This document shows positions 7,094 through 47,497 of a stretch of DNA of 64,000 nucleotides, piece by piece (the stretch's first letter is position 1; each line of letters begins with the position of its first letter). This DNA comes from an uncultured Gammaproteobacteria bacterium (GTDB lineage Bacteria > Pseudomonadota > Gammaproteobacteria > JBGSLN01): assembly GCA_963695245.1 (NCBI GenBank), contig OY968770.1, forward strand, positions 805,894-869,893, given 5' to 3'. The notes under the pieces are model-generated. The model saw nothing but the letters and a program-made list of their open reading frames with translations. It ran no database searches and had not been told where the DNA came from. A program made the translations under genes and the position numbers.

Positions 7094-7197
7094 CCATGTA
7101 GGTTGGGCTGACGAAGAAATCCCAACAGGGTATTCATTTAATTACGGCCTTATTAAGTTGCCACGGCTGTTGGGCTTCCTTCGTCAGCCCAACCTAC
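7094..7197 (+). repeat. REPIN/MITE-like element copy 2
   Basis: atgtaggttgggctgacgaag...ggtattcatttaattacggccttattaagttgccacggctgttgggcttccttcgtcagcccaacctacat. The right-hand outer flank tgtaaatcgaag follows. Confidence 0.9.
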
Positions 7198-7271
7198 ATT
7201 TATTTTGCCTGTAAATCGAAGTTTTTCAGAATTCCTATATCATAAGAATGATACAAAACACTCTAGGAAAA

Positions 7272-7300
7272 TTGCTGAGTATTGCGGCAGGTGCTATACT
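7272..7300 (+). promoter_or_regulatory. Predicted sigma-70 promoter of acnA
   Basis: TTGCTG - 17 bp - TATACT, about 55 nt upstream of the acnA start. Confidence 0.4.
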
Positions 7301-7352
7301 TTGGCTACCTTATTTGTGCAGGGTTCAACCTGCGTCCATCGAGGAGAAACCA

Positions 7353-10025
7353 ATGTCTCTTAACAGTTTTAAAGCCCGGGCAAAATTATCCGTGGGTGAT
7401 AAAGAATACACTTATTTTGATTTAAATAAAGCCATGGAATCGGGCGTAGGCGATGCCAAAAGACTTCCGTTTTGTTTAAAAGTTTTGCTCGAAAACTTAC
7501 TTCGCTACGAAGATGGGGAAAGCGTTAAAAAAGAAGATATTAAAGCTGTACAGCAATGGCTTGAAACAAAATCTTCAAAAAAAGAAATTGCTTACCGACC
7601 TGCCAGGGTACTGATGCAGGATTTCACCGGTGTACCCGCTGTAGTAGATTTAGCTGCAATGCGTACTGCTATGGAAACCATGGGCGGTAACCCGACTAAA
7701 ATTAATCCACTAACGCCTGTTGATTTGGTCATTGACCACTCGGTACAAGTGGATAAATTTGGTACAGATGAAGCCTTCAAAGCCAATGTGGAAATTGAAA
7801 TGTCCCGTAATAAAGAGCGCTATGAATTTTTGCGTTGGGGTCAAAAAGCTTTTGATAATTTTCGCGTGGTACCACCCGGCACAGGTATCTGCCATCAGGT
7901 GAATTTAGAATATCTTGCTAAATCTGTTTTTACTCGTGATATTGAGGGTGAAACCTTTGCTTATCCTGATACTTTAGTTGGCACAGACTCACATACTACC
8001 ATGGTGAATGCTCTGGGTGTTTTAGGCTGGGGTGTTGGTGGTATCGAAGCGGAAGCTGCCATTTTAGGGCAACCGGTTTCAATGCTGATTCCAGAGGTCA
8101 TTGGCTTTAAACTGAATGGGAAATTATCTGAAGGGGTAACAGCGACTGATCTTGTGCTGACGGTTACTCAAATGTTACGTGCCCGGGGTGTGGTGGGTAA
8201 ATTTGTTGAGTTTTATGGTCCAGGTTTACATGAGTTACCTTTAGCTGATAGAGCAACTATTTCAAATATGGCGCCAGAATACGGTGCAACCTGTGGATTT
8301 TTCCCCATCGATAAAGAAACCATTGTTTATTTAAAACTCACCGGCCGTGATGAAGCCACTATCCATCTGGTTGAAGCTTACTGTAAAGAGCAAGGGCTTT
8401 GGCACGATGAAAATACCCAGGAACCTGTATTTACAGATACTTTAGAACTTGATTTAAGTACTGTTGTACCAAGTCTTGCGGGTCCTAAACGTCCACAAGA
8501 CAGAGTTGCCATGAAAGATTTGGCCAAAGCTACTCAGGAAGCATTAAAGACTACTCAAAAAGCTTCTGAAAAAGATAAAACTTTTGCTGTAACCGGAGAG
8601 GATTTTGAATTAAAACATGGTGCTGTGGTTATTGCTGCTATCACCAGTTGTACCAATACTTCTAATCCCAGCGTGTTAATGGCAGCAGGTTTGCTGGCTG
8701 AAAAAGCATTGAAAAAAAATCTTATGCGTAAACCCTGGGTTAAATCATCTTTAGCGCCTGGTTCTAAAGTGGTGACAGAATACCTTGAAAAAGCGGGTTT
8801 GCAGACTCATTTGGATGACTTAGGTTTTAATCTTGTGGGTTACGGCTGTACTACCTGTATCGGTAATTCCGGACCTTTACCAGAAGCCATTGCCAAGTGT
8901 GTCACCGACAATGATTTAACGGTTTGTTCTGTTTTATCCGGCAACCGTAACTTCGAAGGTCGGGTACATCCGCAGGTTAAAGCCAACTGGCTTGCATCGC
9001 CGCCATTAGTGGTTGCTTACGCACTGGCAGGAACGACCGATATTGATTTAACCACTGATCCTTTGGGTCAAGATGCCGATGGCAATGATGTTTATTTGAA
9101 AGATATCTGGCCAACTAATAAAGAAGTCGCGCATGCCTGTGCTAAAGTAGACGGGGAAATGTTTCGTAAAGAATATGCCGATGTGTTTGCTGGTGATGAA
9201 ATCTGGAAAAAGATCAAAGTCACTGAAGGTAAAACCTATGAGTGGAGTGATACTTCCACTTATGTGCAACATCCCCCTTACTTTGTGGGCATGAAAGAAA
9301 AACCAGAGCCCAAAGCAGATATTGTAAAAGCCAATATTTTGGGATTGTTTGGTGACAGCATCACAACCGATCATATCTCTCCTGCAGGTGCTATTAAGCA
9401 AGACTCACCCGCTGGTCACTACTTACAGGAACATGGCGTTAAACATTATGATTTTAACTCTTATGGTTCCCGTCGGGGCAATCATGAAGTGATGATGCGC
9501 GGAACTTTTGCCAATATTCGCATTCGGAATGAAATGGCGCCTGGTACGGAAGGCGGTGTCACCACTTATATTCCAACAGGCGAAGTCATGCCTATCTACG
9601 ATGCAGCGATGAAATATCAGGCGGATAGTAAAGATTTAGTAGTGATTGCCGGCAAAGAATACGGCACCGGTTCATCAAGAGACTGGGCTGCTAAAGGTAC
9701 TTTGTTGCAGGGCGTAAAAGCTGTTATTGCAGAAAGCTTTGAACGTATTCACCGATCTAATTTAATTGGTATGGGAGTATTGCCGCTACAGTTCAAAGAT
9801 GGTACAGACAGAAAAACTTTAAAACTTGATGGCTCAGAAACGATTACCATCAAAGGTATTAATCATATTAAGCCTTTTGATGAACTGGACATGGTAGTCA
9901 CCCGAAAAGATGGCTCTACCGAAAATGCCAGGGTCTTAGTCAGAATCGACACCCTCAACGAGCTTCATTATTATCAAAACGGTGGCATTTTGCACTTTGT
10001 TTTACGTAATTTGATGAAGTCATAA
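7353..10025 (+). CDS. acnA: Aconitate hydratase A
   Basis: 890 aa from [18 protein letters not shown] Shine-Dalgarno sequence upstream. Aconitase family motifs and the Fe-S cysteines ([14 protein letters not shown]) are present. The 5' extension to 7248 in the track runs toward a REPIN and is rejected. Confidence 0.95.
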
Positions 10026-10043
10026 AACAAATTTCGAGATATA

Positions 10044-10150
10044 ATGTAGGTTGGGCTGACGCTTCGAAGCCCAACAGGGTATTCATTTAATTATGGCCTT
10101 ATTTAGTTGCCACGGCTTGTTGGGCTTCGAAGCGTCAGCCCAACCTACAT
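10044..10150 (+). repeat. REPIN/MITE-like element copy 3
   Basis: Arms gacgcttcgaag / cttcgaagcgtc. Followed by the outer flank ttgattttgaatgtaaatcgaag. Confidence 0.9.
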
Positions 10151-10202
10151 TGATTTTGAATGTAAATCGAAGTTTATCGTAAGTCCTAAAAGGGTATTTA
10201 AC

Positions 10203-10431
10203 ATGAATTTTTTACACCAATCCGAACCTCATCTTAATATCAGTGAGCTCGATTTTTACCGAAATGTCTATGAAAACTCACCGGATATGTATGCTTCCGT
10301 TTGTCCTAAAACCCGCAAGATATTGGTCTTACAATTACCAAAAAAATTATTGAAAAGCAAGGCGCTAAGATTGGTTTAAAATCCAATATAGGTAAAGGCT
10401 GTGAGTTTTTTTCACTTGGCCTAAAGCGTAA
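10203..10431 (+). pseudogene. Remnant of a sensor histidine kinase (PAS-like N-terminal piece fused to the last ~40 aa of an HATPase domain; two frame changes)
   Basis: Frame 1 reads MNFLHQSEPHLNISELDFYRNVYENSPDMYASVCPKTRK. The next frame reads IGLTITKKIIEKQGAKIGLKSNIGKGCEFF. One more T in a T7 run would give FFTWPKA*, a canonical HK C-terminus (G.GLGL...G.G..F.F.LP). DHp and most of the catalytic domain are missing. Confidence 0.5.
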
Positions 10432-10479
10432 CATAAGTATAGCGCATGATTACAAGATGTTATGATTGGACTCTATGAC

Positions 10480-10827
10480 TCACTTAAGTGGGATAGCCAT
10501 ATAATTACGTACGCCCTCTGATAAAGCGCGAGTTTTATGACCTCTTCCGGTTAAGTCCTCGGCCAGTAAAATCTCGCCTTCTTTGAAACTTTTTTTAACA
10601 CCATGGCCTGTTTCAATTTCCATTATGCCTCTTAGCATTAGCACATATTGTTTACACGGCGGGTTGTGCCAGTCAATTTCATTTTCTTTGTCCACTTCTC
10701 CAAAAATCACACCCTGTGTTTCCACTAACTGACTTAATTTACCGTAAGCCGCTTCAAAAAAATCAACCTGCATTTCCTCAAAATGAGATTCCCCATCATT
10801 TCCGGTATATATTCTGGTTATTTTCAT
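10480..10827 (-). CDS. Cupin-domain protein
   Basis: 115 aa, small beta-barrel cupin-like sequence (…GHKTRALSEGVRNYMAIPL). Confidence 0.5.
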   Translation of the reverse strand: MKITRIYTGNDGESHFEEMQVDFFEAAYGKLSQLVETQGVIFGEVDKENEIDWHNPPCKQYVLMLRGIMEIETGHGVKKSFKEGEILLAEDLTGRGHKTRALSEGVRNYMAIPLK

Positions 10828-10898
10828 AAAGTTATCTAAACGTCCAGATTTTCAACATTCAGTGCATTAGATTGGATAAATTCTTTTCTGGGCTCAAC

Positions 10899-13280
<2,382 letters not shown>

Positions 13281-13426
13281 TCAGAGGCTTAATTTTTAAC
13301 ACTAACCTACTGATTTAGATAACATTTGAAGGTCTTATAGTATACCAATTTTTATTCAAAAAGGCCATTAAATCTACATATTTTGACATTATCTAAACTA
13401 ATATTACAAAACTGAAAAAACTATTA

Positions 13427-13530
13427 ATGTAGGTTGGGCTGAGGTCGGAAGCCCAACAGAGTATTCATTTAATTACGGCCTTATTTAGTTGCCACGGCCT
13501 GTTGGGCTTCCGACCTCAGCCCAACCTACT
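13427..13530 (+). repeat. REPIN/MITE-like element copy 4 (between recF and gyrB)
   Basis: Arms gaggtcggaagc / gcttccgacctc. Confidence 0.9.
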
Positions 13531-13568
13531 TTAATTATCGTAATTGAGACAAACTCATGAATTATATT

Positions 13569-13584
13569 TGTTCCACGTGAAACA
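13569..13584. promoter_or_regulatory. parS site 1 (ParB-binding centromere-like site)
   Basis: TGTTCCACGTGAAACA, exact match to the canonical parS 16-mer. Lies immediately 3' of the recF stop codon. Confidence 0.85.
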
Positions 13585-14676
13585 TTATCCAGAATTCGGC
13601 ATATCAAGCACAGTGTTATGTTTCACGTGGAACATTTTATGTTGCTTAAATACATTTTTAACTGAGGCTAATTGTGACTCACTGATACCACTAATAAAAA
13701 ATTGCCCTTCTAAATTTTTTAAACATTGAATGAATTGTTCTACTTTTGATTTGTCTAATTCAGCATGAATATCATCAATTAAAAAAATGGCTTGTTTCCC
13801 AGCTAGTTGATTGACTAACCGTGCCTGTGACAGACACATTAGCCAAACAAATAACTTTTGCTGGCCTCGGGAGAGTGCATCTACAATGGGTTTACGATTG
13901 ATAGTGATTTTGAGGTCTGCTCGATGAATACCATAAAATGTATAACCCAATTCTAAATCTTTTGAAATATTCTTTTGCAAAATTTCATCATATTGTAAAT
14001 CTTTACTCCATCCCTGATAAAAATCAATTTTTACATTTTCATAACAGTAATCCTGTAAAAATGATTTAAAAGGCGGAATAAACTGTTGTAAAAATTTCTG
14101 CCTTGCCTCAGTCACTTTATTAGCTGTTTTGATTAAGATCTCATTCCAGGCAGAAATGACATTTAGAGGTTGCCTCTGCCGAATCGCGAGATTCCTTTGC
14201 TGTAGCGCTTTTTGGTTCTTGCGCCACTGAGTTAAAAAAGAAGGTTCCACGTGAAACACACCTAAATCTATAAACTGTCTTCTAATTTTAGGACCTTCTG
14301 TTAAAAGAGAAAAGCTGTCATTATTTAGGATTTGAACCGGCAATATTTTCGAAATTTCTGCTACAGATACAAATTCACCATCTAATTTCTGATGGTTTAT
14401 CCCCTGATAATCTCTGGAAACCCCAATATTATGTAGTTTTTGTGTTGTATTAAGAAATTTTAAAAATACCAATAATCCATTTTTATCATCCTGTATTACT
14501 CGTTTAGTGAGATGCGTTCTAAAAGAACGACCAAAGCTGCATAAATAAATTGCTTCCAAAAAACTGGTTTTGCCGCTGCCGTTTTCACCATAGAATAAAT
14601 TTACTTCCGGATGAAGCCTGGCTTCTACCGATGAAAAATTACGGAAATGTTCAATTTTTATGAAATGGATGGGCAT
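13585..14676 (-). CDS. recF: DNA replication and repair protein RecF
   Basis: MPIHFIKIEHFRNFSSVEARLHPEVNLFYGENGSGKTSFLEAIYL... Confidence 0.96.
   Translation of the reverse strand: MPIHFIKIEHFRNFSSVEARLHPEVNLFYGENGSGKTSFLEAIYLCSFGRSFRTHLTKRVIQDDKNGLLVFLKFLNTTQKLHNIGVSRDYQGINHQKLDGEFVSVAEISKILPVQILNNDSFSLLTEGPKIRRQFIDLGVFHVEPSFLTQWRKNQKALQQRNLAIRQRQPLNVISAWNEILIKTANKVTEARQKFLQQFIPPFKSFLQDYCYENVKIDFYQGWSKDLQYDEILQKNISKDLELGYTFYGIHRADLKITINRKPIVDALSRGQQKLFVWLMCLSQARLVNQLAGKQAIFLIDDIHAELDKSKVEQFIQCLKNLEGQFFISGISESQLASVKNVFKQHKMFHVKHNTVLDMPNSG
13619..13634. promoter_or_regulatory. parS site 2
   Basis: TGTTTCACGTGGAACA, the reverse complement of site 1. 34 bp from site 1, inside the last codons of recF (MFHVKHN). 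Confidence 0.85.
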
Positions 14677-14690
14677 AACGGGTGAGATGC

Positions 14691-15791
14691 TTATATCCGC
14701 ATTGGCATAATAACATAAAGGGCATGGTTATCTTCAGAGTTCGATTCAATCTGCAAAGGGGTATTTGCATCCTGCATGGAAAAAATAATGTCACCATTTG
14801 GCAGGGCGTTTATCGCTTCCATAAGGTAACTTACATTAAAACCGATTTCAAAAGGCTCGAAGGCATAATCAATGGATATTTGCTCAAAGGCTTCTTCATG
14901 TTCTGAGTTATGAGCCTCAATATTGAGTTGATTATTTTCAAAATGAAATTTTACACCATGATACTTTTCATTGGATAAAACCGCAATTCGACTCAAGCTA
15001 TGTTTGATTAAATCTTTTTCAATTATAATTTGTTTAGAAGTATTTTTTGGAATGACTTGTTGATAATCTGGAAAAGCACCATCAATCAGTTTGGTAATGA
15101 GTAAATAGTCTTCTCCCCGAATCCTAAAATGATTATCATCAAATCCTACCGAAACCAGCTCATCACTATGTTGCAGAATTCTTAAAAACTCTAGTACAGC
15201 TTTTCTGGGTAAAATACAGGCCATGTCTTGAGCATCTAAACTGAGTAAATGTTTAGAAAAAGCTAATCGATGCCCATCGGTAGCCACGACTTTTAATTGA
15301 TCAGATGATTTCATCAAATAAATACCGTTTAGATAATACCTGACGTCCTGTTGAGCCATAGAAAAATAAACATTTTCCAAAAGAGTTTTAAAGATACTCT
15401 GTGAAATCTGAAAATCAGACTCCGCTAAATTTCCCTGCACATTAGGAAAATCTTCTGCTTTTAAAACTGATAATTTAAAACGACTGCGTTCACAAGCAAG
15501 TATTAACTGTTCATTATCAAGCGTAAAATGAATCATAGTCTCAGGCAGAGCTTTGACAATATCAAATAATTTGCGAGCAGGCACAGTAATTGCCCCACTG
15601 ACAGCCACTGATTCTAAAGCTGTACGTGCCTGTAGCTCGATTTCCAAATCAGTAGCAATTAAATGAAGGATATCATCCTGTATTTTTAAAAGCACATTAG
15701 AAAGAATAGGCATTGACTGCCTTTTTTCCACGGCTCCCATAACTTTTTGCAGACTGTTTAAGAGTTTGTTTTTTAAGACGCTAAACTGCAT
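14691..15791 (-). CDS. dnaN: DNA polymerase III subunit beta
   Basis: 366 aa beta-clamp. MQFSVLKNKLLNSLQKVMGAVEKRQSMPILSNVLL... Confidence 0.97.
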   Translation of the reverse strand: MQFSVLKNKLLNSLQKVMGAVEKRQSMPILSNVLLKIQDDILHLIATDLEIELQARTALESVAVSGAITVPARKLFDIVKALPETMIHFTLDNEQLILACERSRFKLSVLKAEDFPNVQGNLAESDFQISQSIFKTLLENVYFSMAQQDVRYYLNGIYLMKSSDQLKVVATDGHRLAFSKHLLSLDAQDMACILPRKAVLEFLRILQHSDELVSVGFDDNHFRIRGEDYLLITKLIDGAFPDYQQVIPKNTSKQIIIEKDLIKHSLSRIAVLSNEKYHGVKFHFENNQLNIEAHNSEHEEAFEQISIDYAFEPFEIGFNVSYLMEAINALPNGDIIFSMQDANTPLQIESNSEDNHALYVIMPMRI

Positions 15792-15846
15792 TTTATTCTC
15801 ACACTGAAGATTGTACCTAAAATAATAAAATCAAAACTTACAATGA

Positions 15847-17271: not shown

Positions 17272-17478
17272 TGAATAACCTGTAGAATAACAAAGTCTAC
17301 CTTAAGTTATCCACAGAAAATTTAACTTATTAACAGAAGCAGTTAGGTTATACACAGGGTAAAATATTAGTTAAGCCTATGTTAAGTCATTATTTTCTAG
17401 GCTTTTCCACAGAAAAAACTTACTTAATAATAATATAAAATAAAAATACTTTATATATATTAATAAAATACAGAATCA

Positions 17479-17515
17479 ATGTAGGTTGGGCTGACGCAGG
17501 AAGCCCAACCTACAT
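17479..17515. repeat. Solo REP-like hairpin (single arm) inside the oriC region
   Basis: atgtaggttgggctgacgcaggaagcccaacctacat. 13-bp perfect stem, 9-nt loop. Confidence 0.8.
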
Positions 17516-17562
17516 TGATTAATTTCGTTTTTAATACGAAGAAGACGTAAATCTTATTTAAG

Positions 17563-17591
17563 TTGACATTAAGCCACAAGAACTGTAACAT
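17563..17591 (+). promoter_or_regulatory. Predicted sigma-70 promoter of the rpmH-rnpA-yidD-yidC-mnmE operon
   Basis: TTGACA - 17 bp - TAACAT, about 35 nt upstream of the rpmH ATG. Confidence 0.5.
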
Positions 17592-17626
17592 CTGCCGGCT
17601 AAAAGTTTATTTTTTGAGTAGGCAAG

Positions 17627-17761: not shown

Positions 17762-17767
17762 TTAACC

Positions 17768-18339: not shown

Positions 18340-18341
18340 TT

Positions 18342-21418: not shown

Positions 21419-21419
21419 A

Positions 21420-22500: not shown

Positions 22501-23217
22501 ATGGATTATCATTATTTTAAAGATATTGTGAATAATACTTTTGCCAAAGCCATTGATGCAGATAATCGCCCAACTTTTTTTGAGGTAAACCCAAAATTTC
22601 CGGCTTTACATAACATCACACAGAATTTTGAAACCATAAAATCTGAATTTGAACAGGCGATAGAACAGTTAGACAATTTACCCAAATATCATGAAGTGGA
22701 TCCTGGAGAAAGTGAAATATCTAATACTACCGAAAAAAACTGGAATGTTTTAATGCTGTATCTCTTGGGATATAAACCAGAAAAAAACCGCACATTATTT
22801 CCAAAAACCTGTGATTTATTAAAAGATATTCCCAATCTGGTACAGGCATTTTTTTCTATTTTAGAACCAGGTAAGTCAGTACCAAAACATAAAGGGCCTT
22901 ATCTTGGTTATCTTCGCTATCATTTAGGCATTCAAGTGCCAAAACAAAATCCACCCAGCATTATCGTTAATGATAAACCCTATACATGGAAAGAATCAGA
23001 GGCCGTCATGTTTGATGACTCATGGCCACATGAGGTGATTAACGAAGCTACTGAATCACGGGTAGTGCTGATTATTGACGTACTAAGACCTATGCCCTGG
23101 TGGCCGCAGATACTCAATCGGTTTGTCACTAATGTGATTGCCAAATATACCTACGGTCGCCAAGTGGTCAGTCGCGTTCAAAACAGTGGGATTGAGGTTT
23201 TAAAGCCTATTGATTAA
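22501..23217 (+). CDS. Aspartyl/asparaginyl beta-hydroxylase family 2OG-Fe(II) dioxygenase (LpxO-like)
   Basis: LFPKTCDLL...FSILEPGKSVPKHKGPYLGYLRYHLGIQVP...FDDSWPHEV, the Asp_Arg_Hydrox signature. Start taken at MDYHYF. Confidence 0.65.
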   Translation: MDYHYFKDIVNNTFAKAIDADNRPTFFEVNPKFPALHNITQNFETIKSEFEQAIEQLDNLPKYHEVDPGESEISNTTEKNWNVLMLYLLGYKPEKNRTLFPKTCDLLKDIPNLVQAFFSILEPGKSVPKHKGPYLGYLRYHLGIQVPKQNPPSIIVNDKPYTWKESEAVMFDDSWPHEVINEATESRVVLIIDVLRPMPWWPQILNRFVTNVIAKYTYGRQVVSRVQNSGIEVLKPID

Positions 23218-35816: not shown

Positions 35817-35831
35817 AGGTGAATAAAATTT

Positions 35832-36317: not shown

Positions 36318-36340
36318 GTAAAAACGGATAAAATGAGCAT

Positions 36341-39195: not shown

Positions 39196-39290
39196 AAGCG
39201 AGAATAGCAATGGCGTTTTGATCATATATGACTTACGATTGTGATAGGTTCTTAAGGACTTACGCAAAAATTCAAAATTGGAACATATCA

Positions 39291-39394
39291 ATGTAGGTTG
39301 GACTGACGCAGGAAGCCCAACAGTGTTACATTTAATTACAGCCTGGTTTAGTTGTCACGGCTTGTTGGGCTTCCTGCGTCAGCCCAACCTACAT
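39291..39394 (+). repeat. REPIN/MITE-like element copy 8
   Basis: Arms gacgcaggaagc / gcttcctgcgtc. Variant centre. Confidence 0.9.
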
Positions 39395-39431
39395 TGAACA
39401 CAATTTTAATTACATCAGCAAACATTCATGA

Positions 39432-40379
<948 letters not shown>

Positions 40380-40397
40380 ATGACTATTTAATGTAGC

Positions 40398-41054
40398 TTA
40401 CATCAACATCGCCAAGCGCTCTGGCGTTCCAACATCACACCAGTTACCGTCGTATATTTCACCCTGTAATTTTTTTTCTTCCATAGCTTTCACTAAAATA
40501 GGCAACATGGGTTGCACTTTATTTTTTTCAAAGCCTGTAAATAGTTTAGGATGATAAAGCGCTATGCCTGCATAAGTGTAACTTTGCACTGCATCTTTAG
40601 TTGGACAAACTAACTGCTTGTCCAATGTGAAATCTCCAATTTGGTTATGATCAGGGTTCTTCACCAAAAGGATTTTCCCAGAAGCATGATTTGTATCAAG
40701 GGTTAAATTTTCTAAAGGATAATCACACCACACATCGCAATTTATAACATAAAATAGTCCATCGCCCAGCAAAGGCAGTGCTTTAATGAGACCTCCGCCA
40801 ACTTCCAGTGGCTGATCTTCATAGGAATAATGAATGGTTACGCCATACTTTTTCCCATCTCCCAGATAATTCTGGATTTGTTTAGCCAAATAGGAAATAT
40901 TAATCACAATATCTTTAATTTGCAGACGGGCAAGTTTTTCAACATGATACTCAATTAAAGGTTTGCCAGCGACCTTTAGTAAACCTTTATGGGTATGATT
41001 TGTTAAAGGTTTCATACGGCTGCCTCGTCCAGCAGCTAAAATCATTGCTTTCAT
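40398..41054 (-). CDS. murU: N-acetylmuramate alpha-1-phosphate uridylyltransferase MurU (nucleotidyltransferase)
   Basis: MKAMILAAGRGSRMKPLT..., NTP-transferase fold. Immediately downstream of amgK (1-nt spacing). Confidence 0.8.
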   Translation of the reverse strand: MKAMILAAGRGSRMKPLTNHTHKGLLKVAGKPLIEYHVEKLARLQIKDIVINISYLAKQIQNYLGDGKKYGVTIHYSYEDQPLEVGGGLIKALPLLGDGLFYVINCDVWCDYPLENLTLDTNHASGKILLVKNPDHNQIGDFTLDKQLVCPTKDAVQSYTYAGIALYHPKLFTGFEKNKVQPMLPILVKAMEEKKLQGEIYDGNWCDVGTPERLAMLM

Positions 41055-41055
41055 A

Positions 41056-42012
41056 TTAAATCTCAAAAACTTTGGGTAAGAGCTTAGTGGTAAAAAAAAG
41101 ATGAAACGCTTCAAGCTCAGAATACTTTGCTGTGGTTTCAACTACATGATTTAAAACCCTATCAAAATGTTGAAGAAAAACCCCATTACCTCTTTCAAAA
41201 TAAATTTTACTAAAACCGCCTAAAATTTTCAGATGCCTTTGCAGGCCAGTCATATCATATAAAAATTCAAACTCTGAAACATGGATATGCCAATCCATCC
41301 TGCTAAAAAAATGCTGCTTTAATTCATGCTCCATGGGATCAGGCCATGAAGCATAAGCATCTTTAAGTAAAGATACCAAATCATAAGTGACAGGGCCTAT
41401 CATTAAGTCTTGAAAATCGATTACCCTTAGAGTATTTTCATGAGCCATTAAATTTTTACTGTGATAATCTCGATGCATCACCACCTGTGGTTGTGCTGTA
41501 ATAGCCTTTAAAATAAATTCAAAGGTATTTTCAAGTAATGCTTCATCGGCTGCGGACAACTGATACTCAGCATACTTTTTGATAAACCAGCGAGCAAACA
41601 AAGTTAATTCATCACGAGCTAGGTTTTTAGAAAAATCAATTGGTTGGGACAGCTCAGTTATGGCAATGTTTTGCATTTTTAGAATCATATCAACCGCTTT
41701 TAGAAGATAGCGATTGAGTTGTTTTGAGTCGGTAACTGCCAGCAGATGTTGATCGCCTAAATCTTCAAGTTGAAAATAACCCCGTGAAATATCCTGTTTT
41801 AAAATTTCTGGTACCAAAACATGATGGCAGCGAAGCAGTTTAGCTGCCTGAAAAAAACGCTCACTATTACTTTCAGAAGAAGCATCCATGACAATGGTGG
41901 TGGGTGCAGAATCTACCCGATAATATCGTCTCAAACTTGCATCTTGCTTCAAAAGGTGGAGTTTGTGATTGCCAATATTGGCCTCCACCCAAAGGTTTAC
42001 ATCTTTATTCAT
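41056..42012 (-). CDS. amgK: Anomeric MurNAc/GlcNAc kinase AmgK (APH-family phosphotransferase)
   Basis: 318 aa. ...DASLRRYYRV..., aminoglycoside-phosphotransferase-like fold. amgK-murU pairing. Confidence 0.75.
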   Translation of the reverse strand: MNKDVNLWVEANIGNHKLHLLKQDASLRRYYRVDSAPTTIVMDASSESNSERFFQAAKLLRCHHVLVPEILKQDISRGYFQLEDLGDQHLLAVTDSKQLNRYLLKAVDMILKMQNIAITELSQPIDFSKNLARDELTLFARWFIKKYAEYQLSAADEALLENTFEFILKAITAQPQVVMHRDYHSKNLMAHENTLRVIDFQDLMIGPVTYDLVSLLKDAYASWPDPMEHELKQHFFSRMDWHIHVSEFEFLYDMTGLQRHLKILGGFSKIYFERGNGVFLQHFDRVLNHVVETTAKYSELEAFHLFFTTKLLPKVFEI

Positions 42013-42016
42013 GGGT

Positions 42017-42337
42017 TTAAGGGGTTTTACTTTTCACAAGTAGACTGTTTTCAACCATTTTGACACCAGAGACTTTACTTGAGACTTTCACGGCTTCTTT
42101 AATGGTTGCCTTATCTTTGACAAAACCACTTAGCTGCACAACCCCTTTGTAGGTGGTGACAGTAATTGCTCGCAGAGTACTAACCCCTAAATGACTGGCA
42201 AGTTCTGCTTTAACTTTGGTTGTGATGGCAGTGCTGTCAAGATACTGACCCGTACTTTCACTGTTGCTGGTGGAAGCACAGGCGTTCAAAATAACAGGGC
42301 TAATCAGGCACAGAGCCAGTAAAAGCATTTTTTTCAT
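42017..42337 (-). CDS. BON-domain lipoprotein (OsmY-like)
   Basis: Signal/lipobox LNACAST, then a BON domain (…LRAITVTTYKGVVQLSGFVKDKATIKEAVKVSS…). Confidence 0.65.
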   Translation of the reverse strand: MKKMLLLALCLISPVILNACASTSNSESTGQYLDSTAITTKVKAELASHLGVSTLRAITVTTYKGVVQLSGFVKDKATIKEAVKVSSKVSGVKMVENSLLVKSKTP

Positions 42338-42458
42338 GTAAAACTCACTAAAAATAGAAGTCTTAGCTTACTGAATTCTGAAAAACAAGTAAATAGGGCT
42401 TAGAAAAAACTCCTCACCGACCGTGGACACCTATCCTGGTTAGAGTCAAATATTCGTA

Positions 42459-42564
42459 ATGTAGGTTGGCGCTGAGGTCGGAAGCCCAACAAGGTATTCA
42501 TTTAATTACGGCCTTATTTAATTGCCACGGCTGTTGGGCTTCCGACCTCAGCGCCAACCTACAT
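42459..42564 (+). repeat. REPIN/MITE-like element copy 9
   Basis: Arms gaggtcggaagc / gcttccgacctc. Outer stems read ttggcgctg / cagcgccaa, a compensated change relative to ttgggctg / cagcccaa. Confidence 0.9.
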
Positions 42565-42644
42565 TGATTATGCCTCATCTTTTAGTTTTGCGTTAGTCCA
42601 AAGACTATGTCAAACTTTGGCCCAAATTCAATGGGGTTGTAATT

Positions 42645-43802
42645 ATGTCATATCTAAAAAAAATCTTACTACTGGGCTCTGGTGAGTTGGGTAAAGAGTT
42701 CACCATCAGCGCAAAGCGTTTGAACTGTTATGTCGTTGCAGTGGACAGCTACCCTTGTGCGCCTGCTATGGCCGTTGCTGATGAATGCGAAGTTGTAAAC
42801 ATGTTGGATGCAAAAAGTCTGTCCAAGATAGTGATAAAACATCAGCCAGATTATATTGTGCCGGAAATTGAAGCTATTAAAACAACACAGTTGATTGCCC
42901 TTGAAAAGCAGGGATTTTGCGTCATTCCAAATGCCAGAGCCACCTACTTGACTATGAATCGGGATGCCATTCGAGATTTGGCAGCTCATGAGCTTGAATT
43001 AACTACGGCAAATTATGCTTATGCTCAAAATCCGGAAGCTTTAAAAGCTGCTTGCGCTAAAATAGGCTACCCTTGCGTTGTCAAACCTGTGATGTCATCT
43101 TCTGGTAAAGGTCAATCCATTGTCCAATCCGCAGAGGAAATAACAAAAGCCTGGCAAAATGCCTGTGACAATATGCGAGGTGATGAACAAAAAGTCATAG
43201 TAGAAGCTTTTATAGCCTTTGACTCTGAAATTACGTTATTGACAGTTAAACAAAGAAATGGAGAAACTTTGTTTGTCGCGCCCATCGGTCACGAGCAAAA
43301 AAATGGTGATTATCAATATTCATGGCAACCGGCCAACTTATCTCAAAAGCAATTAGAACAGGCACAAACAACAGCAAAAAAAGTGACGGATGCATTAGGT
43401 GGGTTTGGTTTATTTGGTGTTGAATTTTTTGTAACTGACGATGAAGTAATTTTTTCTGAACTATCTCCCAGGCCCCATGATACAGGAATGGTCACATTAA
43501 TTTCTCAAAATTTATCTGAGTTTGATTTGCATTTACGGGCGATTTTAGGATTGCCAATTCCTAACATTAAATACTACGGGCCAAGTGCCTCAGCCGTTAT
43601 TTTAGCGCAATCAGCAGCCCAGCATTATGAGGTCAAAGGCTTGGAAAAAGCCCTCGCTGAGCCTTGTGTGGAGGCAAGAATTTTTGGTAAACCTACAACC
43701 CGTATCAATCGGCGTATGGGGATTACTCTTGCAAGTGCGAGTACAACAACCGCGGCTATTGAGAAAGCAAGAGAGGCAGCGGCAAAAGTGCAGATTGTTT
43801 AG
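42645..43802 (+). CDS. purT: Formate-dependent phosphoribosylglycinamide formyltransferase (GAR transformylase 2)
   Basis: MSYLKKILLLGSGELGKEFTISAKRLNCYVVAVDSY..., ATP-grasp. 385 aa. Confidence 0.9.
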   Translation: MSYLKKILLLGSGELGKEFTISAKRLNCYVVAVDSYPCAPAMAVADECEVVNMLDAKSLSKIVIKHQPDYIVPEIEAIKTTQLIALEKQGFCVIPNARATYLTMNRDAIRDLAAHELELTTANYAYAQNPEALKAACAKIGYPCVVKPVMSSSGKGQSIVQSAEEITKAWQNACDNMRGDEQKVIVEAFIAFDSEITLLTVKQRNGETLFVAPIGHEQKNGDYQYSWQPANLSQKQLEQAQTTAKKVTDALGGFGLFGVEFFVTDDEVIFSELSPRPHDTGMVTLISQNLSEFDLHLRAILGLPIPNIKYYGPSASAVILAQSAAQHYEVKGLEKALAEPCVEARIFGKPTTRINRRMGITLASASTTTAAIEKAREAAAKVQIV

Positions 43803-43827
43803 CAACTAAAGTAATTGACAAAAACGA

Positions 43828-44168
43828 TTGAAATTTTATACGCTGCCTCGGCTTCGAATTATTTTAACGGTTTTTCGTCGGGAAGTCTGTACCATGGGTA
43901 CACTGGCCAAAGCAACGCAGCTTACTCAAGGCTCCATCACCCAATCCATTGATAAGCTTGAAAAGGAAGGTTACTTAAATCGGGTACGTTCTACCACCGT
44001 CGCCGGATTATTTACATTGAGCTTACCAAAAAAGCAAAACAGTTAGCCTTAGAACATGAAAAGCATGTGAAATCTATTTATCGTAACTGGCTCAAGCAAC
44101 TTTATGAAGCTGAGCAATCAACTTTGTTAAAAATTTTTAAAAAGCTGGCTTTAGAGGAGTTTAAATAA
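43828..44168 (+). pseudogene. MarR-family transcriptional regulator, frameshifted (single-base deletion) and N-terminally short
   Basis: ...LAKATQLTQGSITQSIDKLEKEGYLNRVRSTT, then at accg-tcgccgg the frame shifts to ...RRIIYIELTKKAKQLALEHEKHV...EEFK*. Restoring one base gives the canonical MarR DRR..I.LT.KG wing. Confidence 0.5.
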
Positions 44169-44222
44169 AAATTTTTGATTAATATAGGACTTACAATAAA
44201 CTTCGATTTACAGTCAAAATCA

Positions 44223-44326
44223 ATGTAGGTTGGGCTGAGGTCGGAAGCCCAACAGGGTATTCATTTAATTATGGCCTCATTTAATTGCCACGGCCGTTGG
44301 GCTTCCGACCTCAGCCCAACCTACAT
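44223..44326 (+). repeat. REPIN/MITE-like element copy 10
   Basis: Preceded by the outer flank acttcgatttacagtcaaaatca. Confidence 0.9.
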
Positions 44327-44351
44327 TTATAGTACATAATTTTCCTCAAGT

Positions 44352-45254
44352 TTATTTGTGAAAAAACTTTATAAAATTTTCGGCAATGTCAGCACGAGTA
44401 GCAATCCAAACTTTTTCAAACCTAAGGCAATAGCATATGAAATCTTCAATAATCTTAGTTCGACCCGGTCTGCCAGAAATTCTTGGGTGTAAAGCAATGG
44501 TCATAAATTTCGGATGAGTTTTACCCTCTTCATAGAGACAATCAAAGGTACGCTTCAGGTAAGTTAAAAAATCTTCCGGTGATGACCAGCCTGGTGCTGT
44601 GAGGTAACGGCAGTCATTACAATCTAATGTATACGGAAGAATTAATTGCATTGAATGTTCAAAAGGAATAAAAAAAGGTACATCATCACTGTAATCATCA
44701 CTGTCATAAAGCAGTTGATGCGCCAGCACAAACTTTCGGGTGTGACGGCTTTTTCTGCCCGTGTACCAGCCTTTTACTTTTTTATGCGTTAAGTTTTCAA
44801 TGATTGAAATGGTTTTTTTAAAATGTGCCTGTTCCAGTTTTTCATCCACTAAACTATAATCCCACCAACGGTAACCATGTCCTGCCACTTCATGAGCAGA
44901 GGTTTTCAAATATTCACAAAAATCAGGGTTTCGTTTTAGAGCAAGCCCTGCAGCAAAAAAAGTAAGCGGAATTTTATGATGATCAAAAACACGTAATAAT
45001 CGCCAAATACCTGCTTTGGCACCATATTGAAACATAGATTCAGAAGAAAAGTGCCGGATGTTTTCGAGGGCTTTTAAGTTTGGAATATCCGTAAGATAAT
45101 TTTCCGAACTGTTATCGCCATCTAAAATATTTCGTTCCGCACCTTCTTCATAATTGATTACAAAATTAAGTGCGATGCGAGCATTATTTTTCCAGCGAAT
45201 CTGGATGGACTTCTGGCCATAGCCAACAAAAGTTCTGGGATACCAGTCAGACAT
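44352..45254 (-). CDS. Polysaccharide deacetylase-family protein (PuuE-like NodB-homology)
   Basis: 300 aa. ...NYEEGAE...SESMFQYGAKAGIWRLLRVFDHHKIPLTFFAAGLALKRNP...AGHGYRW. Confidence 0.65.
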   Translation of the reverse strand: MSDWYPRTFVGYGQKSIQIRWKNNARIALNFVINYEEGAERNILDGDNSSENYLTDIPNLKALENIRHFSSESMFQYGAKAGIWRLLRVFDHHKIPLTFFAAGLALKRNPDFCEYLKTSAHEVAGHGYRWWDYSLVDEKLEQAHFKKTISIIENLTHKKVKGWYTGRKSRHTRKFVLAHQLLYDSDDYSDDVPFFIPFEHSMQLILPYTLDCNDCRYLTAPGWSSPEDFLTYLKRTFDCLYEEGKTHPKFMTIALHPRISGRPGRTKIIEDFICYCLRFEKVWIATRADIAENFIKFFHK

Positions 45255-45256
45255 TA

Positions 45257-46102
45257 TCAGCCCAGCTCAAAAGTTGTTATGCCGTAAACATGATTAAGAT
45301 TCATCTTTGGACAGCCTTGGCGATACATGCGAATGGTTTCAAAATGCGGTTGCATTTGATAACTGTTTACCAGTTTTAAAGCATTTTCGTTGAGGTAAGG
45401 AATATCAAGATAAACTGGAAACTCATTTATGTCAGCACATAAAGATGAAAAAAGTTCTCTGGCTATCTCATGGGACTCGGCAAACAATGGCCCTACCTTA
45501 TAGCCCGCAAAACATTTGCGAATCACACCATAGCCAAGAACGGATGAATCTTTTAAAAAAATCAGCGCTTTTGCTTCTGGTTGAAATATCCATTGAGTTA
45601 AAAATTCTGTCCGGCAGGCTGGAAAGTATTTTTGATCATACTGTACAATGCTTTGAAATAAATCTGGTGTAATAGGTGTAACGTATTTTGAGTGCATATT
45701 TTCGATAGGATGGTCTAAACCAAAGCGAATATTTTTATGATAAGGGCGATAACCAATCTTTTCATACTCATGAACCATTTCCAGCACGCCATCCAAACCT
45801 GTGACCCGATTTTTAACATAATCTAACCGAGCCTTTGTTAAGGCTATGCCAAAACCCTGTTGACGAAATCCAGGTTGAACAATATAGCAGCCACAAAAAG
45901 CAAAATTATCATCATAAATCACCGCCGAAGCAACAGCGATAATTTCACCATTGAGTTTGCCAGCAAAAAAACCATGGTTATCCGCAGCAAAAAAAGTTTG
46001 TGCATCATAGATGCCCGGATTCCAGCCTTCGAGCTGCATCCACTTGATAAGAACAGGCATCTCATCAGGATTTAATCGTGTGATTTCATAATTATTTGAC
46101 AT
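45257..46102 (-). CDS. GNAT-family N-acetyltransferase (two-lobed)
   Basis: 281 aa. ...VQPGFRQQGFGIALTKA... acetyl-CoA-binding motif. Confidence 0.65.
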   Translation of the reverse strand: MSNNYEITRLNPDEMPVLIKWMQLEGWNPGIYDAQTFFAADNHGFFAGKLNGEIIAVASAVIYDDNFAFCGCYIVQPGFRQQGFGIALTKARLDYVKNRVTGLDGVLEMVHEYEKIGYRPYHKNIRFGLDHPIENMHSKYVTPITPDLFQSIVQYDQKYFPACRTEFLTQWIFQPEAKALIFLKDSSVLGYGVIRKCFAGYKVGPLFAESHEIARELFSSLCADINEFPVYLDIPYLNENALKLVNSYQMQPHFETIRMYRQGCPKMNLNHVYGITTFELG

Positions 46103-46124
46103 ATTTAAATTAATCTAAAAAATT

Positions 46125-46229
46125 ATGCAGGTTGGGCTGACGAAGAAAGCCCAACAGCCGTGGCCACTAAATTAGGCCATAATTAAATGAATAACTCTGT
46201 TGGGCTTTCTTCGTCAGCCCAACCTACAT
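46125..46229 (-). repeat. REPIN/MITE-like element copy 11 (reverse orientation)
   Basis: atgcaggttgggctgacgaagaaagcccaacagccgtggccactaaattaggccataattaaatgaataac... Confidence 0.9.
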
Positions 46230-46234
46230 TTTTA

Positions 46235-47065
46235 TTATAGATCAACTTCACCCATAAATATTTCATGAGCTGGCCCAGTCATCCACACAGGCTCATTGTT
46301 TCCATTCCATTCAATTTTTAAGTCTCCACCTGGCATGGTAACGGTGACCTGTGAATTCAAGCGATTTAATAAAATACCAGATACCACTGCGGCACAGGCG
46401 CCACTGCCACAGGCAAGGGTTTCTCCGGTGCCACGCTCATAAATCCTTAAACGAATGTGATTTTTAGCCAAAACCTGCATAAATTCAACATTGGTTCGGT
46501 TTGGAAATTGTGGATGTAAAGAAAAGGCTTTGCCAAGATGCTCGATGTCAATATCATTAACATTGTCCACCTCAAAAATGCAGTGAGGATTACCCATAGA
46601 AACCACACTGACATGATAATCACCACATTTAATATTTAAGGTATAAATGGTTTTTCTGGCAGTGGCTTTAAAAGGAATTTCTTCAGGTTCCAATACTGGC
46701 GTACCCATATCTACAGTTACGGTATTCTCATCGCGCAAAATCAATTGATGTTTATTTTTTTTGGTGGCAACGCTTAAGGTTTTTTTGGTGCTTAAGCCAT
46801 GATCATGAATATATTTAGCAATACAGCGAGCACCATTGCCACACTGATAAGCTTCTGAGCCATCGGCATTAAAAATCTGATAATAAAAGTCATGGGATGC
46901 ATCTTTGGGAGGCGCTATTAACAGCATTTGATCAAAACCAATGCCAAAATGGCGGTGACTGAGTTGTTGGATTTGTTCCGTATTAGGGACATAAGACTGA
47001 TTTACGGTTTCTATCACCGCAAAATCATTGCCCAATCCCTGCATTTTTGCAAATTTAAGTTTCAT
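46235..47065 (-). CDS. dapF: Diaminopimelate epimerase
   Basis: 276 aa. MKLKFAKMQGLGNDFAVI..., both catalytic Cys regions (CGNGARC, ACGSGACA). Confidence 0.95.
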   Translation of the reverse strand: MKLKFAKMQGLGNDFAVIETVNQSYVPNTEQIQQLSHRHFGIGFDQMLLIAPPKDASHDFYYQIFNADGSEAYQCGNGARCIAKYIHDHGLSTKKTLSVATKKNKHQLILRDENTVTVDMGTPVLEPEEIPFKATARKTIYTLNIKCGDYHVSVVSMGNPHCIFEVDNVNDIDIEHLGKAFSLHPQFPNRTNVEFMQVLAKNHIRLRIYERGTGETLACGSGACAAVVSGILLNRLNSQVTVTMPGGDLKIEWNGNNEPVWMTGPAHEIFMGEVDL

Positions 47066-47075
47066 GATTTACCCA

Positions 47076-47267
47076 TCAGTAAAAAGTATCGGTTTTGTGT
47101 GTTGTTGCCTCAGTAACTGCTTTTTTGGTATGCTTTTTCTGAGACACTTTACCTGCGGCTGGTTTTTGTGCCTGAACATCGGGTTTTGGAAGATACAAAG
47201 GCCCCGTCTGTCCACAGCCACTTAATATCAGCACAGCAAACAAAGGCAGTATTATAAGGGGTTTCAT
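47076..47267 (-). CDS. lptM: Small lipoprotein LptM (YifL-like), upstream of dapF as in E. coli
   Basis: MKPLIILPLFAVLILSGCGQTGPLYLP..., a lipobox followed by the conserved GPLYLP motif. Confidence 0.7.
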   Translation of the reverse strand: MKPLIILPLFAVLILSGCGQTGPLYLPKPDVQAQKPAAGKVSQKKHTKKAVTEATTHKTDTFY

Positions 47268-47391
47268 CGATATCGCCCTGATAAAAAAATTTGTCCTCAA
47301 TTATAGCTTTTTAAAGTTATAATTTTAAGAGATAATAAGTAAAGTTATCACAATGAGGCTTACGAAAAACTTCGATTTACATGCAAATTCA

Positions 47392-47497
47392 ATGTAGGTT
47401 GGGCTGAGGAAGGAAGCCCAACAGAGTTATTCATTTAATTACGGCCTTATTTAGTTGCCACAGCCTGTTGGGCTTCCTTCCTCAGCCCAACCTACAT
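47392..47497 (+). repeat. REPIN/MITE-like element copy 12
   Basis: Arms gaggaaggaagc / gcttccttcctc. Preceded by the outer flank acttcgatttacatgcaaattca. Confidence 0.9.

What the first reader, a model, noticed from the sequence alone, without database searches (positions are those of the whole stretch)
7094..47497. Compensatory covariation between the two arms of each element
The loop of the arm hairpin differs between copies (gacGAAGga, gacGCTTCGAag, gagGTCGga, gagGAAGga, gacGCAGga, gacAAAGga). In every copy except 31188 the opposite arm carries the exact complement. Copy 42459 also has a paired change in the outer stem (ttggcgctg/cagcgccaa). Loops are not needed for the small hairpins, so keeping arm-to-arm complementarity implies one of two things. 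Each copy may be generated from a single-arm (hairpin or ssDNA) template, or its arms may be homogenised. Alternatively there is selection for the long ~32-bp arm-arm stem. Copy 31188 has gaggtcgga on the left and cttcgtc on the right. It looks like a recombinant between two subfamilies.
Basis: seen in the sequence. Interest (0 to 1): 0.55.

Follow-up and report, generated by a model that had tools for sequence, protein, structure and literature searches.

The report
REP doublets (REPINs) with co-varying arms
The repeats are about 100-bp REPIN-type mobile elements, each made of two inverted GTAG-headed REP hairpins around a spacer, in a Legionella-like chromosome; the matched changes in their two arms are real, but this behaviour is already described for this class of element.

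Summary
The covariation is real. Ten 100-103-bp copies carry seven loop variants, and in 8 of 10 the two arms are exact complements (permutation P = 2.5e-5; 0/500 shuffles in the pair count). It also missed two full copies with inherited unequal arms (1582, 62443), two 33-bp solo palindromes and one truncated copy.

Each arm is a GTAG-headed REP hairpin. Each element is a head-to-head REP homodimer with a conserved spacer, extragenic and without target duplication. That makes it a REPIN.

The same REP stem occurs across beta- and gamma-proteobacteria. It flanks all four REP-associated tyrosine transposase (RAYT) genes examined. I could not check for a RAYT in the source genome.

Compensatory changes across REPIN hairpins were reported in 2011, so the phenomenon is known.

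Regeneration from one arm at every transposition is unlikely, because the two unequal-armed copies share their asymmetry. Selection on hairpin-forming lineages and occasional arm-to-arm templated correction both remain possible. A mirrored 1-nt insertion, mostly transversional changes and one template-switch-like loop lean towards templated correction.

Other genomes with this REP rarely have matched loops, so matching is not obligatory. Verdict: a new member of a known kind, of modest interest.

The parts
7098..7197 (+). Full REP doublet (REPIN), 100 bp. Left loop GACGAAGAA, right loop GACGAAGGA. Imperfect: one loop mismatch plus one stem mismatch.
10046..10148 (+). Full REPIN, 103 bp, 10-nt loop GACGCTTCGA in both arms. 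Arms are 100% complementary over 34 nt. The loop creates the local palindrome GCTTCGAAGC.
   Evidence: (I6)
13429..13529 (+). Full REPIN, loop GAGGTCGGA in both arms. Lies between gyrB and recF.
28318..28417 (+). Full REPIN, loop GACAAAGGA in both arms, second spacer subtype (TTGTCACGGCTT).
31189..31289 (+). Full REPIN with unmatched loops (left GAGGTCGGA, right GACGAAGGA) and the most diverged spacer.
39293..39392 (+). Full REPIN, loop GACGCAGGA in both arms, second spacer subtype. One outer-stem mismatch (GGACT).
42461..42562 (+). Full REPIN, loop GAGGTCGGA in both arms. Carries a mirrored 1-nt insertion in the outer stem (GGCGCT / AGCGCC).
   Evidence: (I8)
44225..44324 (+). Full REPIN, loop GAGGTCGGA in both arms.
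46127..46227 (-). Full REPIN with its spacer in the opposite orientation. Loop GACGAAGAA in both arms. GCAGG replaces GTAGG at one end.
   Evidence: (I1)
47394..47495 (+). Full REPIN, loop GAGGAAGGA in both arms. Complementarity runs 38 nt (ATTCAATGTAGG... / ...CCTACATTGAAT).
   Evidence: (I2)
1582..1679 (-). Full doublet with unequal arms (heterodimer). One arm has a short loop (TGATTA). The other has GACGTAAGGA and an extra stem base (AGCACCAAC).
62443..62538 (-). Second doublet with the same inherited asymmetry: short loop GTTA in one arm; GACGAAGGA plus AGCACCAAC in the other.
17481..17513 (.). Solo long palindrome GTAGGTTGGGCT-GACGCAGGA-AGCCCAACCTAC. This is a doublet that has lost its spacer and one hairpin. 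Lies upstream of dnaA.
   Evidence: (I11); compare PMC3337134
1704..1738 (.). Decayed solo palindrome (GTAAGGTTGGGCT-GACAAAGGA-AGCCCAACCTAT).
58795..58857 (+). Truncated copy: the 3' part of the spacer (second subtype) plus the right arm (loop complement of GACAAAGGA). The left arm is missing.

Best explanation
The elements are REPINs. Each arm is a REP unit: the tetranucleotide GTAG followed by an 8-bp stem (GTTGGGCT / AGCCCAAC) and a 9-10-nt loop. Two such units lie head-to-head with GTAG outside, around a conserved spacer of about 40 bp. A single strand can fold either into two small hairpins or into one hairpin of about 35 bp.

**How they spread (inferred).** By analogy with other REPINs, they are copied within the genome in trans by a single-copy REP-associated tyrosine transposase (RAYT). 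This is an HUH/Y1 enzyme related to the IS200/IS605 transposases. It acts on folded single-stranded DNA and leaves no target duplication.

**What is shown.**
- The whole doublet is the unit that is copied. Spacer subtypes, loop types and even arm asymmetry are inherited together.
- The stems are held constant.
- The central five or six loop bases are free to change.

**What is inferred.**
- The lineages that keep propagating have arms that still pair along their whole length.
- New matched variants most likely start as one mutation in one arm. That mutation is then copied onto the other arm by intramolecular templating, either template switching or repair in the quasi-palindrome during replication. 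Two independent hits are less likely.
- Solo palindromes are what remains after the centre of a doublet is lost.

**Likelihoods.** REPIN identity about 0.85. RAYT mobilisation about 0.7. Templated origin of the matched variants about 0.45, against about 0.35 for classical two-hit compensation.
For: **Anatomy.**
- GTAG head, perfect 8-bp stem and inverted doublet; 12 full copies, 2 solos and 1 half copy in 64 kb.
- Single-strand DNA folds of -42 to -44 kcal/mol for the three matched-arm copies, z about -12 to -13; the imperfect copy 31189 gives -33.7, z about -10.
- All copies are extragenic. The three apparent ORF overlaps come from over-extended start codons.
- No direct repeat of 3 bp or more flanks the copies.

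**REP class and its transposase.**
- The exact stem pair GTAGGTTGGGCT...AGCCCAACCTAC occurs in more than 107 stretches from many beta- and gamma-proteobacteria, including Legionella and Coxiellaceae.
- Four of four RAYT genes of one clade are flanked by this REP type (L088, L112, L113, L114). Each scores 188-197 bits on NCBIfam NF047646, cut-off 80.

**Covariation.**

**The doublet as the inherited unit.**
- Loop types recur in several copies. GAGGTCGGA occurs three times symmetrically and once in one arm. GACGCAGGA occurs in a full copy and a solo. GACAAAGGA occurs in a full copy, a solo and the half copy.
- Loop types follow spacer subtypes.
- Diversity is 0.04-0.06 in the stems, 0.32-0.34 in the loops and 0.17 in the spacer.

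**Pointers to templating.**
- A mirrored 1-nt insertion in copy 42461.
- Four of the six single-site loop changes are transversions, which cannot pass through a wobble intermediate.
- The loop of copy 10046 replaces AAG with CTTC, the reverse complement of the adjacent GAAG. That is the pattern left by a template switch.

**Literature.**
- REPINs and common compensatory changes: PMC3116915.
- Long palindromic REP singlets left by excision of the REPIN centre: PMC3337134.
- Homodimers and heterodimers of head-to-head GTAG REPs: PMC3733652.
- Template switching homogenises inverted-repeat arms: abstracts of PMC8794818, PMC8604942 and PMC7202029 (listed; these three papers were not read).
Against: - No RAYT lies in the window. 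The rest of the source genome could not be read. The cognate transposase is therefore inferred from other genomes.
- Only 12 full copies are available, so lineage history cannot be separated cleanly from constraint.
- Copies 1582 and 62443 kept unequal arms while their spacers diverged. Arm correction is therefore neither obligatory nor efficient, and perfect pairing is not required for copying.
- In other genomes with the same REP stem, doublet arms usually have different loops. Loop matching is therefore not a general requirement of this REP/RAYT system.
- The template-switch reading of copy 10046 rests on a single element.
Confidence: 0.55

Rival explanations
1. Classical compensatory evolution only. 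Doublets with a mismatch propagate poorly. A second, independent mutation in the other arm restores the long hairpin, and that lineage then expands. No templating between arms is involved.
For: - This is the explanation implied for REPINs in PMC3116915.
- Stems are strongly conserved and loops vary only in matched form.
- Loop types form multi-copy lineages.
- A possible intermediate exists: copy 7098 has GACGAAGAA in one arm only, while copy 46127 has it in both.
Against: - It needs at least six independent mirrored double hits, plus a mirrored single-base insertion (copy 42461) and a mirrored multi-base change with an indel (copy 10046).
- Most changes are transversions with no wobble intermediate.
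- Loops are about twice as diverse as the spacer. Paired substitution should be slower than neutral change, not faster.
- The unequal-armed lineage still propagated.
Confidence: 0.3
2. Regeneration from one arm at every transposition. The mobile intermediate is a single strand carrying one arm and the spacer. Its 3' end folds back and is extended along the 5' arm, as in panhandle repair of AAV terminal repeats. Every new copy is therefore born perfectly symmetric.
For: - It would explain mirrored substitutions, indels and the variable extension of complementarity into the ends (for example ATTCAAT / ATTGAAT at 47394) without any selection.
- Asymmetric excision products lacking the last bases of one end were reported for REPINs (PMC3116915).
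Against: - Copies 1582 and 62443 sit at different loci and share the same unequal arms, while their spacers differ at several positions. The asymmetry was transmitted.
- Heterodimeric doublets with conserved spacers are common in other genomes with this REP.
Confidence: 0.07
3. A conventional MITE. It would be a deletion derivative of a DDE-transposase insertion sequence, with terminal inverted repeats bound as double-stranded DNA. The arms match because both ends must fit the same transposase.
For: Size of about 100 bp, long terminal inverted repeats, AT-rich insertion sites and dispersed extragenic copies.
Against: - No target-site duplication of 3 bp or more at any boundary offset.
- The ends are GTAG-headed REP hairpins of a class that flanks RAYT genes.
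- Transposase binding would conserve the ends, not make variable positions covary.
- Solo palindromes match REPIN excision footprints.
Confidence: 0.04
4. A host-selected structured element. The long hairpin would be maintained by selection on the host, in RNA as an mRNA 3'-end stabiliser, an RNase III site or a small RNA, or in DNA as a protein-binding site.
For: - Covariation in a long helix is the usual signature of a functional RNA structure.
- REPs have documented roles in mRNA stability (cited in PMC3337134).
- Several copies lie just downstream of genes.
Against: - No Rfam family reaches threshold. Sub-threshold hits are generic long hairpins.
- Copies occur between convergent, divergent and co-directional genes, and with the spacer in either orientation.
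- There is no T-tract or excess of promoter-like sites.
- Stems have perfect Watson-Crick pairing with essentially no G-U enrichment, and both strands fold equally.
- Other genomes tolerate unmatched loops in the same REP class.
Confidence: 0.08

Closest known systems
REPINs and their RAYTs (Pseudomonas fluorescens SBW25 groups GI-GIII; Bertels & Rainey 2011, PMC3116915 and PMC3337134)
   Same: - Two inverted REP units around a spacer that fold into one long hairpin.
- Extragenic, with an estimated several hundred copies per genome if the window's density holds.
- Conserved ends and a more variable middle.
- Compensatory changes across the hairpin.
- Long palindromic singlets left when the centre is lost.
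- Association of the REP class with a Y1/HUH RAYT.
   Different: - The REP sequence is different (GTAGGTTGGGCT...).
- Here the covariation sits in the loops of the REP hairpins rather than in the spacer.
- It comes as discrete matched loop lineages, including a mirrored indel.
- The cognate RAYT of this genome was not seen.
- The host is a Legionella-like organism with a contig of about 2.17 Mb.
GTAG-tagged REP head-to-head homodimers and heterodimers (Di Nocera et al. 2013, PMC3733652); E. coli BIMEs built from y and z REPs
   Same: - GTAG head and stem-loop body.
- Head-to-head dimers with conserved spacers.
- Homodimers (ten copies) and heterodimers with different loop lengths (copies 1582 and 62443) coexist.
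   Different: E. coli dimers are exclusively heterodimers with bulged stems. This family is mostly homodimers with a perfect 8-bp stem. This particular family is not listed in that survey, which does not mention Legionella.
Coxiella burnetii QMITE2 (PMC5896051)
   Same: Same bacterial order (Legionellales). A small repeat built around a GTAG REP, with short versions that are essentially bare REPs.
   Different: QMITE2 is 150-190 bp, has 7-11-bp direct repeats and is a target for IS1111. The elements here are 100 bp without direct repeats. Sequence similarity was not tested.
Quasi-palindrome template-switch mutation (abstracts of PMC7202029, PMC8604942 and PMC8794818, listed; not read) and panhandle repair of AAV terminal repeats (own knowledge)
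   Same: A mechanism by which one arm of an imperfect inverted repeat is copied onto the other. It gives mirrored multi-base changes and indels in one step.
   Different: This is a mechanistic analogy only. Nothing here shows the process directly. The stable unequal-armed copies show it is not efficient.

Membership tests
REP / REPIN (RAYT-associated) | GTAG tetranucleotide immediately 5' of a short palindromic stem-loop | tested here: met
   GTAG-GTTGGGCT-loop-AGCCCAAC in both arms of all full copies, each read on its own strand. Exceptions: one end of 46127 is GCAG, and in 42461, 1582 and 62443 the stem is altered by a base insertion or substitution. Local stems are 98% paired and invariant.
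REP / REPIN (RAYT-associated) | Two REPs in inverted orientation around a spacer, able to fold into one long hairpin | tested here: met
   Arms of 34-38 nt are 89-100% complementary, 37-42 nt apart. Single-strand DNA folds are -42 to -44 kcal/mol for the matched-arm copies, z about -12 to -13.
REP / REPIN (RAYT-associated) | High copy number and extragenic location | tested here: met
   15 copies or remnants in 64 kb. All lie between ORFs once over-extended start codons are discounted.
REP / REPIN (RAYT-associated) | No target-site duplication (IS200/IS605-like single-strand transposition) | tested here: met
   No direct repeat of 3 bp or more at any offset. Only the palindromic AT adjoining the ends recurs.
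REP / REPIN (RAYT-associated) | A RAYT gene in the same genome flanked by the same REP | not testable with these tools
   There is no RAYT in the window. In other genomes, 4 of 4 RAYTs of the clade examined (NF047646) are flanked by GTAGGTTGGG-type REPs.
REP / REPIN (RAYT-associated) | Long palindromic singlets (a-palindrome-a') as footprints of doublets | tested here: met
   17481-17513 and about 1704-1738 carry loop types also found in full copies. Compare PMC3337134.
DDE-type MITE (for example Correia, ERIC, IS630- or IS5-derived) | Target-site duplication flanking the terminal inverted repeats | tested here: not met
DDE-type MITE | A related autonomous insertion sequence with the same ends | tested here: inconclusive
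   No longer element with these ends exists in the window.
Curated structured RNA family (Rfam) | A match at or above a family's gathering score | tested here: not met
   No matches at gathering threshold over the whole window. Only generic long-hairpin (miRNA-precursor) hits far below threshold.

The most novel reading that the evidence does not exclude
The two arms of these REPINs are actively kept identical by arm-to-arm templated copying. This could be a template switch or hairpin-directed repair on single-stranded DNA, possibly coupled to RAYT activity. A change in one REP loop, including indels, would then be mirrored in one step. The family would be a natural record of concerted evolution inside a 100-bp element. 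It would also explain how REPINs regain symmetry, a question left open in the REPIN literature.
Probability: 0.35. Interest if true: 0.55.

Novelty: new member of a known kind. Interest (0 to 1): 0.3.

Why it matters
The finding places a dense repeat family in a Legionella-like genome into the REP/REPIN/RAYT framework. There is about one copy per 4 kb in this window. If that density holds, the 2.17-Mb contig carries roughly 500 copies (an inference).

The family is cleaner than usual for one question. Its variable positions lie in the REP loops, where the local hairpin imposes no pairing constraint. Arm-to-arm matching there can only reflect the long hairpin or templating between arms.

Matched homodimers and stably unequal heterodimers coexist in one genome. 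Unmatched or even anti-matched arms occur in other genomes with the same REP stem. Together these give a natural comparison for how REPIN symmetry is maintained.

It does not reveal a new kind of system.

Tried and rejected
- **More copies from metagenomes.** A scan with a spacer-plus-inner-stem pattern that leaves the loops free found only one chance match inside a coding region.
- **Reading beyond the window or in sister strains.** Look-ups by exact protein returned only short Logan contigs from one run (ERR12040027).
- **Close relatives.** The PurT-like protein has no relative above 70% identity, so orthologous empty or filled sites could not be compared.
- **Finding the RAYT of the source genome.** A homology search from the L088 RAYT gave a top 120 filled by other taxa. 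None lay on the 2,165,533-bp contig.
- **Organism name.** Cluster look-up gave no names.
- **Rfam.** Nothing at threshold.
- **Promoter and terminator scan.** Nothing coincides with the elements beyond chance.
- **Target-site duplication.** None found.
- **Spacer inserted into the loop of a solo palindrome, with the loop as a direct duplication.** Rejected, because the right loop is the reverse complement of the left, not a direct copy.
- **Loop inversion by template switching inside one arm.** Rejected, because it would make the loops direct repeats rather than inverted ones.
- **Literature on Legionella REP or RAYT.** Nothing relevant found.
- **Alignment artefact.** In A1 the extra loop base of copy 10046 is gapped at non-mirrored columns. 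This gives two false mismatches. Its arms are in fact 100% complementary.

Full report
**Setting.** The window is a chromosomal region of a Legionella-like gammaproteobacterium at about 38% G+C. It holds gyrB, a neighbouring gene block read by position as recF, dnaN and dnaA (not scanned), yidC, mnmG, acnA, topA and a Dot/Icm Wip-like effector. Its proteins are on record from a single 2,165,533-bp contig. The PurT-like protein has no relative above 70% identity, so no close relative could be used for comparison.

**The observation.**
- A pattern search, an inverted-repeat search and a profile search find 12 full elements of 96-103 bp, two 33-bp solo palindromes and one copy lacking its left arm. 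Nothing else in the window matches.
- Each arm reads GTAG-GTTGGGCT-loop-AGCCCAAC, and the other arm is its reverse complement.
- In eight of the ten the two arms carry the same loop, each read on its own strand (for copy 42461).
- The mirrored extra base in copy 42461 (GGCGCT / AGCGCC) is real.
- Re-pairing left and right loops at random gives 1.8 matches on average against 8 observed (P = 2.5e-5). With one copy per loop type it is 5 of 6 (P = 0.0013).
- On alignment A1 the arm-to-arm helix is 93% paired, with 8 pairs changed on both sides. No shuffle of 500 reached the covariation score, and the structures with the 3' partner slid by 1-3 columns scored far lower.
- The two small hairpins never vary, so they carry no covariation signal.

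**Corrections to the observation.**
- Copy 7098 is a second imperfect copy, with one loop mismatch and one stem mismatch.
- Copies 39293, 46127 and 13429 each have one mismatch outside the loop.
- Copies 1582 and 62443 have clearly unequal arms.

**What the elements are.**
- A GTAG head followed by a short stem-loop is the definition of a REP.
- Two REPs placed head-to-head around a spacer, folding into one long hairpin, is a REPIN (PMC3116915; PMC3733652).
- The single-strand folds are -42 to -44 kcal/mol for matched-arm copies, with z about -12 to -13.
- All copies are extragenic. Three apparent overlaps with ORFs disappear when the first ATG is used.
- No direct repeat of 3 bp or more flanks them. 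That fits IS200/IS605-type single-strand transposition and argues against a DDE-type MITE.
- The solo palindromes (GTAG-stem-loop-stem-CTAC) are the "a-palindrome-a'" singlets described as footprints of REPINs that lost their centre (PMC3337134). They carry loop types also present in full copies.

**Link to a transposase.**
- The exact stem pair occurs in more than 107 stretches from many beta- and gamma-proteobacteria, including Legionella gresilensis, a Legionella MAG and a Coxiellaceae MAG. It also occurs in a few other phyla and in three viral contigs.
- One locus (L088) carries a 176-aa protein 46% identical to E. coli RayT, flanked on both sides by this REP.
- Three further homologues (Andreprevotia, an unnamed metagenome contig, and Rudaea) are likewise flanked by GTAGGTTGGG-type REPs.
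- All four score 188-197 bits on NCBIfam NF047646, REP-associated tyrosine transposase, cut-off 80. On Pfam Y1_Tnp (gathering score 23), L088 scores 23.6 bits and L112 20.8.
- No RAYT lies in the window, and the rest of the source genome could not be read. The cognate enzyme in this organism is therefore an inference.

**What the covariation means.**
- The family has one origin. All copies share the spacer, which comes in two main subtypes plus variants.
- Loop types recur in several copies and follow spacer subtypes. Three GAGGTCGGA copies differ by 2-5 of about 39 spacer positions but not at all in their loops. The loop types therefore mark lineages of a replicating doublet.
- Diversity is 0.04-0.06 in the stems, 0.17 in the spacer and 0.32-0.34 in the loops. 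Stems are constrained, and the loop core is free provided it stays mirrored.
- Each matched variant still needs an origin. Relative to GACGAAGGA there are six single-site changes, four of them transversions, plus one complex change with an extra base and one mirrored insertion in the stem.

**Discriminating the mechanisms.**
- *Regeneration of one arm from the other at every transposition* is unlikely. Copies 1582 and 62443, at different loci, share a short loop in one arm and an extra stem base in the other, while their spacers have diverged. The asymmetry is inherited.
- *Classical two-hit compensation under selection for the hairpin* is possible and is the published reading. It has to account for mirrored indels, for transversions with no wobble intermediate, and for loops more diverse than the spacer.
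- *Occasional arm-to-arm templating* produces mirrored multi-base changes in one step. Template switching in quasi-palindromes is a documented process (abstracts of PMC7202029, PMC8604942 and PMC8794818, listed; these papers were not read). The loop of copy 10046, where CTTC is the reverse complement of the adjacent GAAG, looks like such an event. I favour this slightly, combined with preferential propagation of hairpin-competent lineages. The sample is small.
- *A caution for any selection model.* In other genomes with the same REP stem, only 7 of about 120 doublets have identical loops. In the Undibacterium-type family, which has a conserved spacer, the two loops differ more than random pairs do: 3.17 mismatches against 2.57, upper tail about 0.001. 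Matched loops are not required by this REP/RAYT system in general.

**Copy 31189.** It combines GAGGTCGGA and GACGAAGGA, both present elsewhere, and it has the most diverged spacer. Recombination, conversion of one arm, or simple age cannot be told apart.

**Rivals rejected or downgraded.**
- DDE-type MITE: no target duplication, REP-type ends.
- Curated RNA family: none.
- Terminator or promoter role: no signal.

**Verdict.** The element is a REPIN family of a widespread GTAG-REP class, apparently undescribed in this host. Arm covariation in REPINs is already reported. The remaining open point is whether symmetry is restored by templating or by selection. That is worth a whole-genome census but does not amount to a new kind of system.

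Noticed in passing
window 1582-1679 and 62443-62538: Two doublets are heterodimers. One arm has a 4-6-nt loop, resembling the GTAA-loop REP of a Legionella MAG (L075). The other arm has a 9-10-nt loop and an extra stem base. The extra base sits at the same stem position as the mirrored insertion in copy 42461.
   Followed up: partly
window 10046-10148: The 10-nt loop variant makes the perfect palindrome GCTTCGAAGC with the adjacent stem. The new bases CTTC are the reverse complement of the neighbouring GAAG, as a short template switch would produce.
   Followed up: partly
loci L004-L102 (Undibacterium spp. and related MAGs): A 101-bp REPIN family has the same REP stem and a conserved spacer centred on ACGTATACGT. 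Its two loops are more different from each other than random pairs (3.17 against 2.57 mismatches), which suggests obligate heterodimers.
   Followed up: partly
loci L001-L107, L115-L117: The 12-nt REP head and stem GTAGGTTGGGCT is conserved exactly across beta- and gamma-proteobacteria. It also occurs in a few Alphaproteobacteria, Planctomycetes and Bacteroidota MAGs and in three IMG/VR viral contigs. The loops GACGAAGGA and GACGCAGGA recur in distant taxa.
   Followed up: partly
window 17481-17513: A solo REP palindrome sits in the intergenic region upstream of dnaA. That is the usual neighbourhood of the replication origin and the rpmH promoter.
   Followed up: no
window 42645-43802: The PurT-like gene (formate-dependent GAR transformylase) has its best outside matches at only 63-70% identity. 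Many of them are named Bdellovibrio-like. This suggests an isolated lineage or horizontal acquisition.
   Followed up: no
window 23207-26419 and 26529-28334: A 1070-aa protein has a Dot/Icm Wip-like N-terminal domain scoring below the curated cut-off. Next to it is a 601-aa VgrG-like protein with a weak PAAR-like match.
   Followed up: no
L108, L111 (Logan run ERR12040027): The only other contigs carrying window proteins are short. One spans roughly window 1.7-7.1 kb, which suggests (not checked) that it ends at the repeats. The repeats would then fragment short-read assemblies of this organism.
   Followed up: no
window, spacer orientation of the 12 full copies: Nine of the 12 copies have the spacer in the same orientation on the + strand, on both sides of dnaA. 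The count is too small to call a bias.
   Followed up: no
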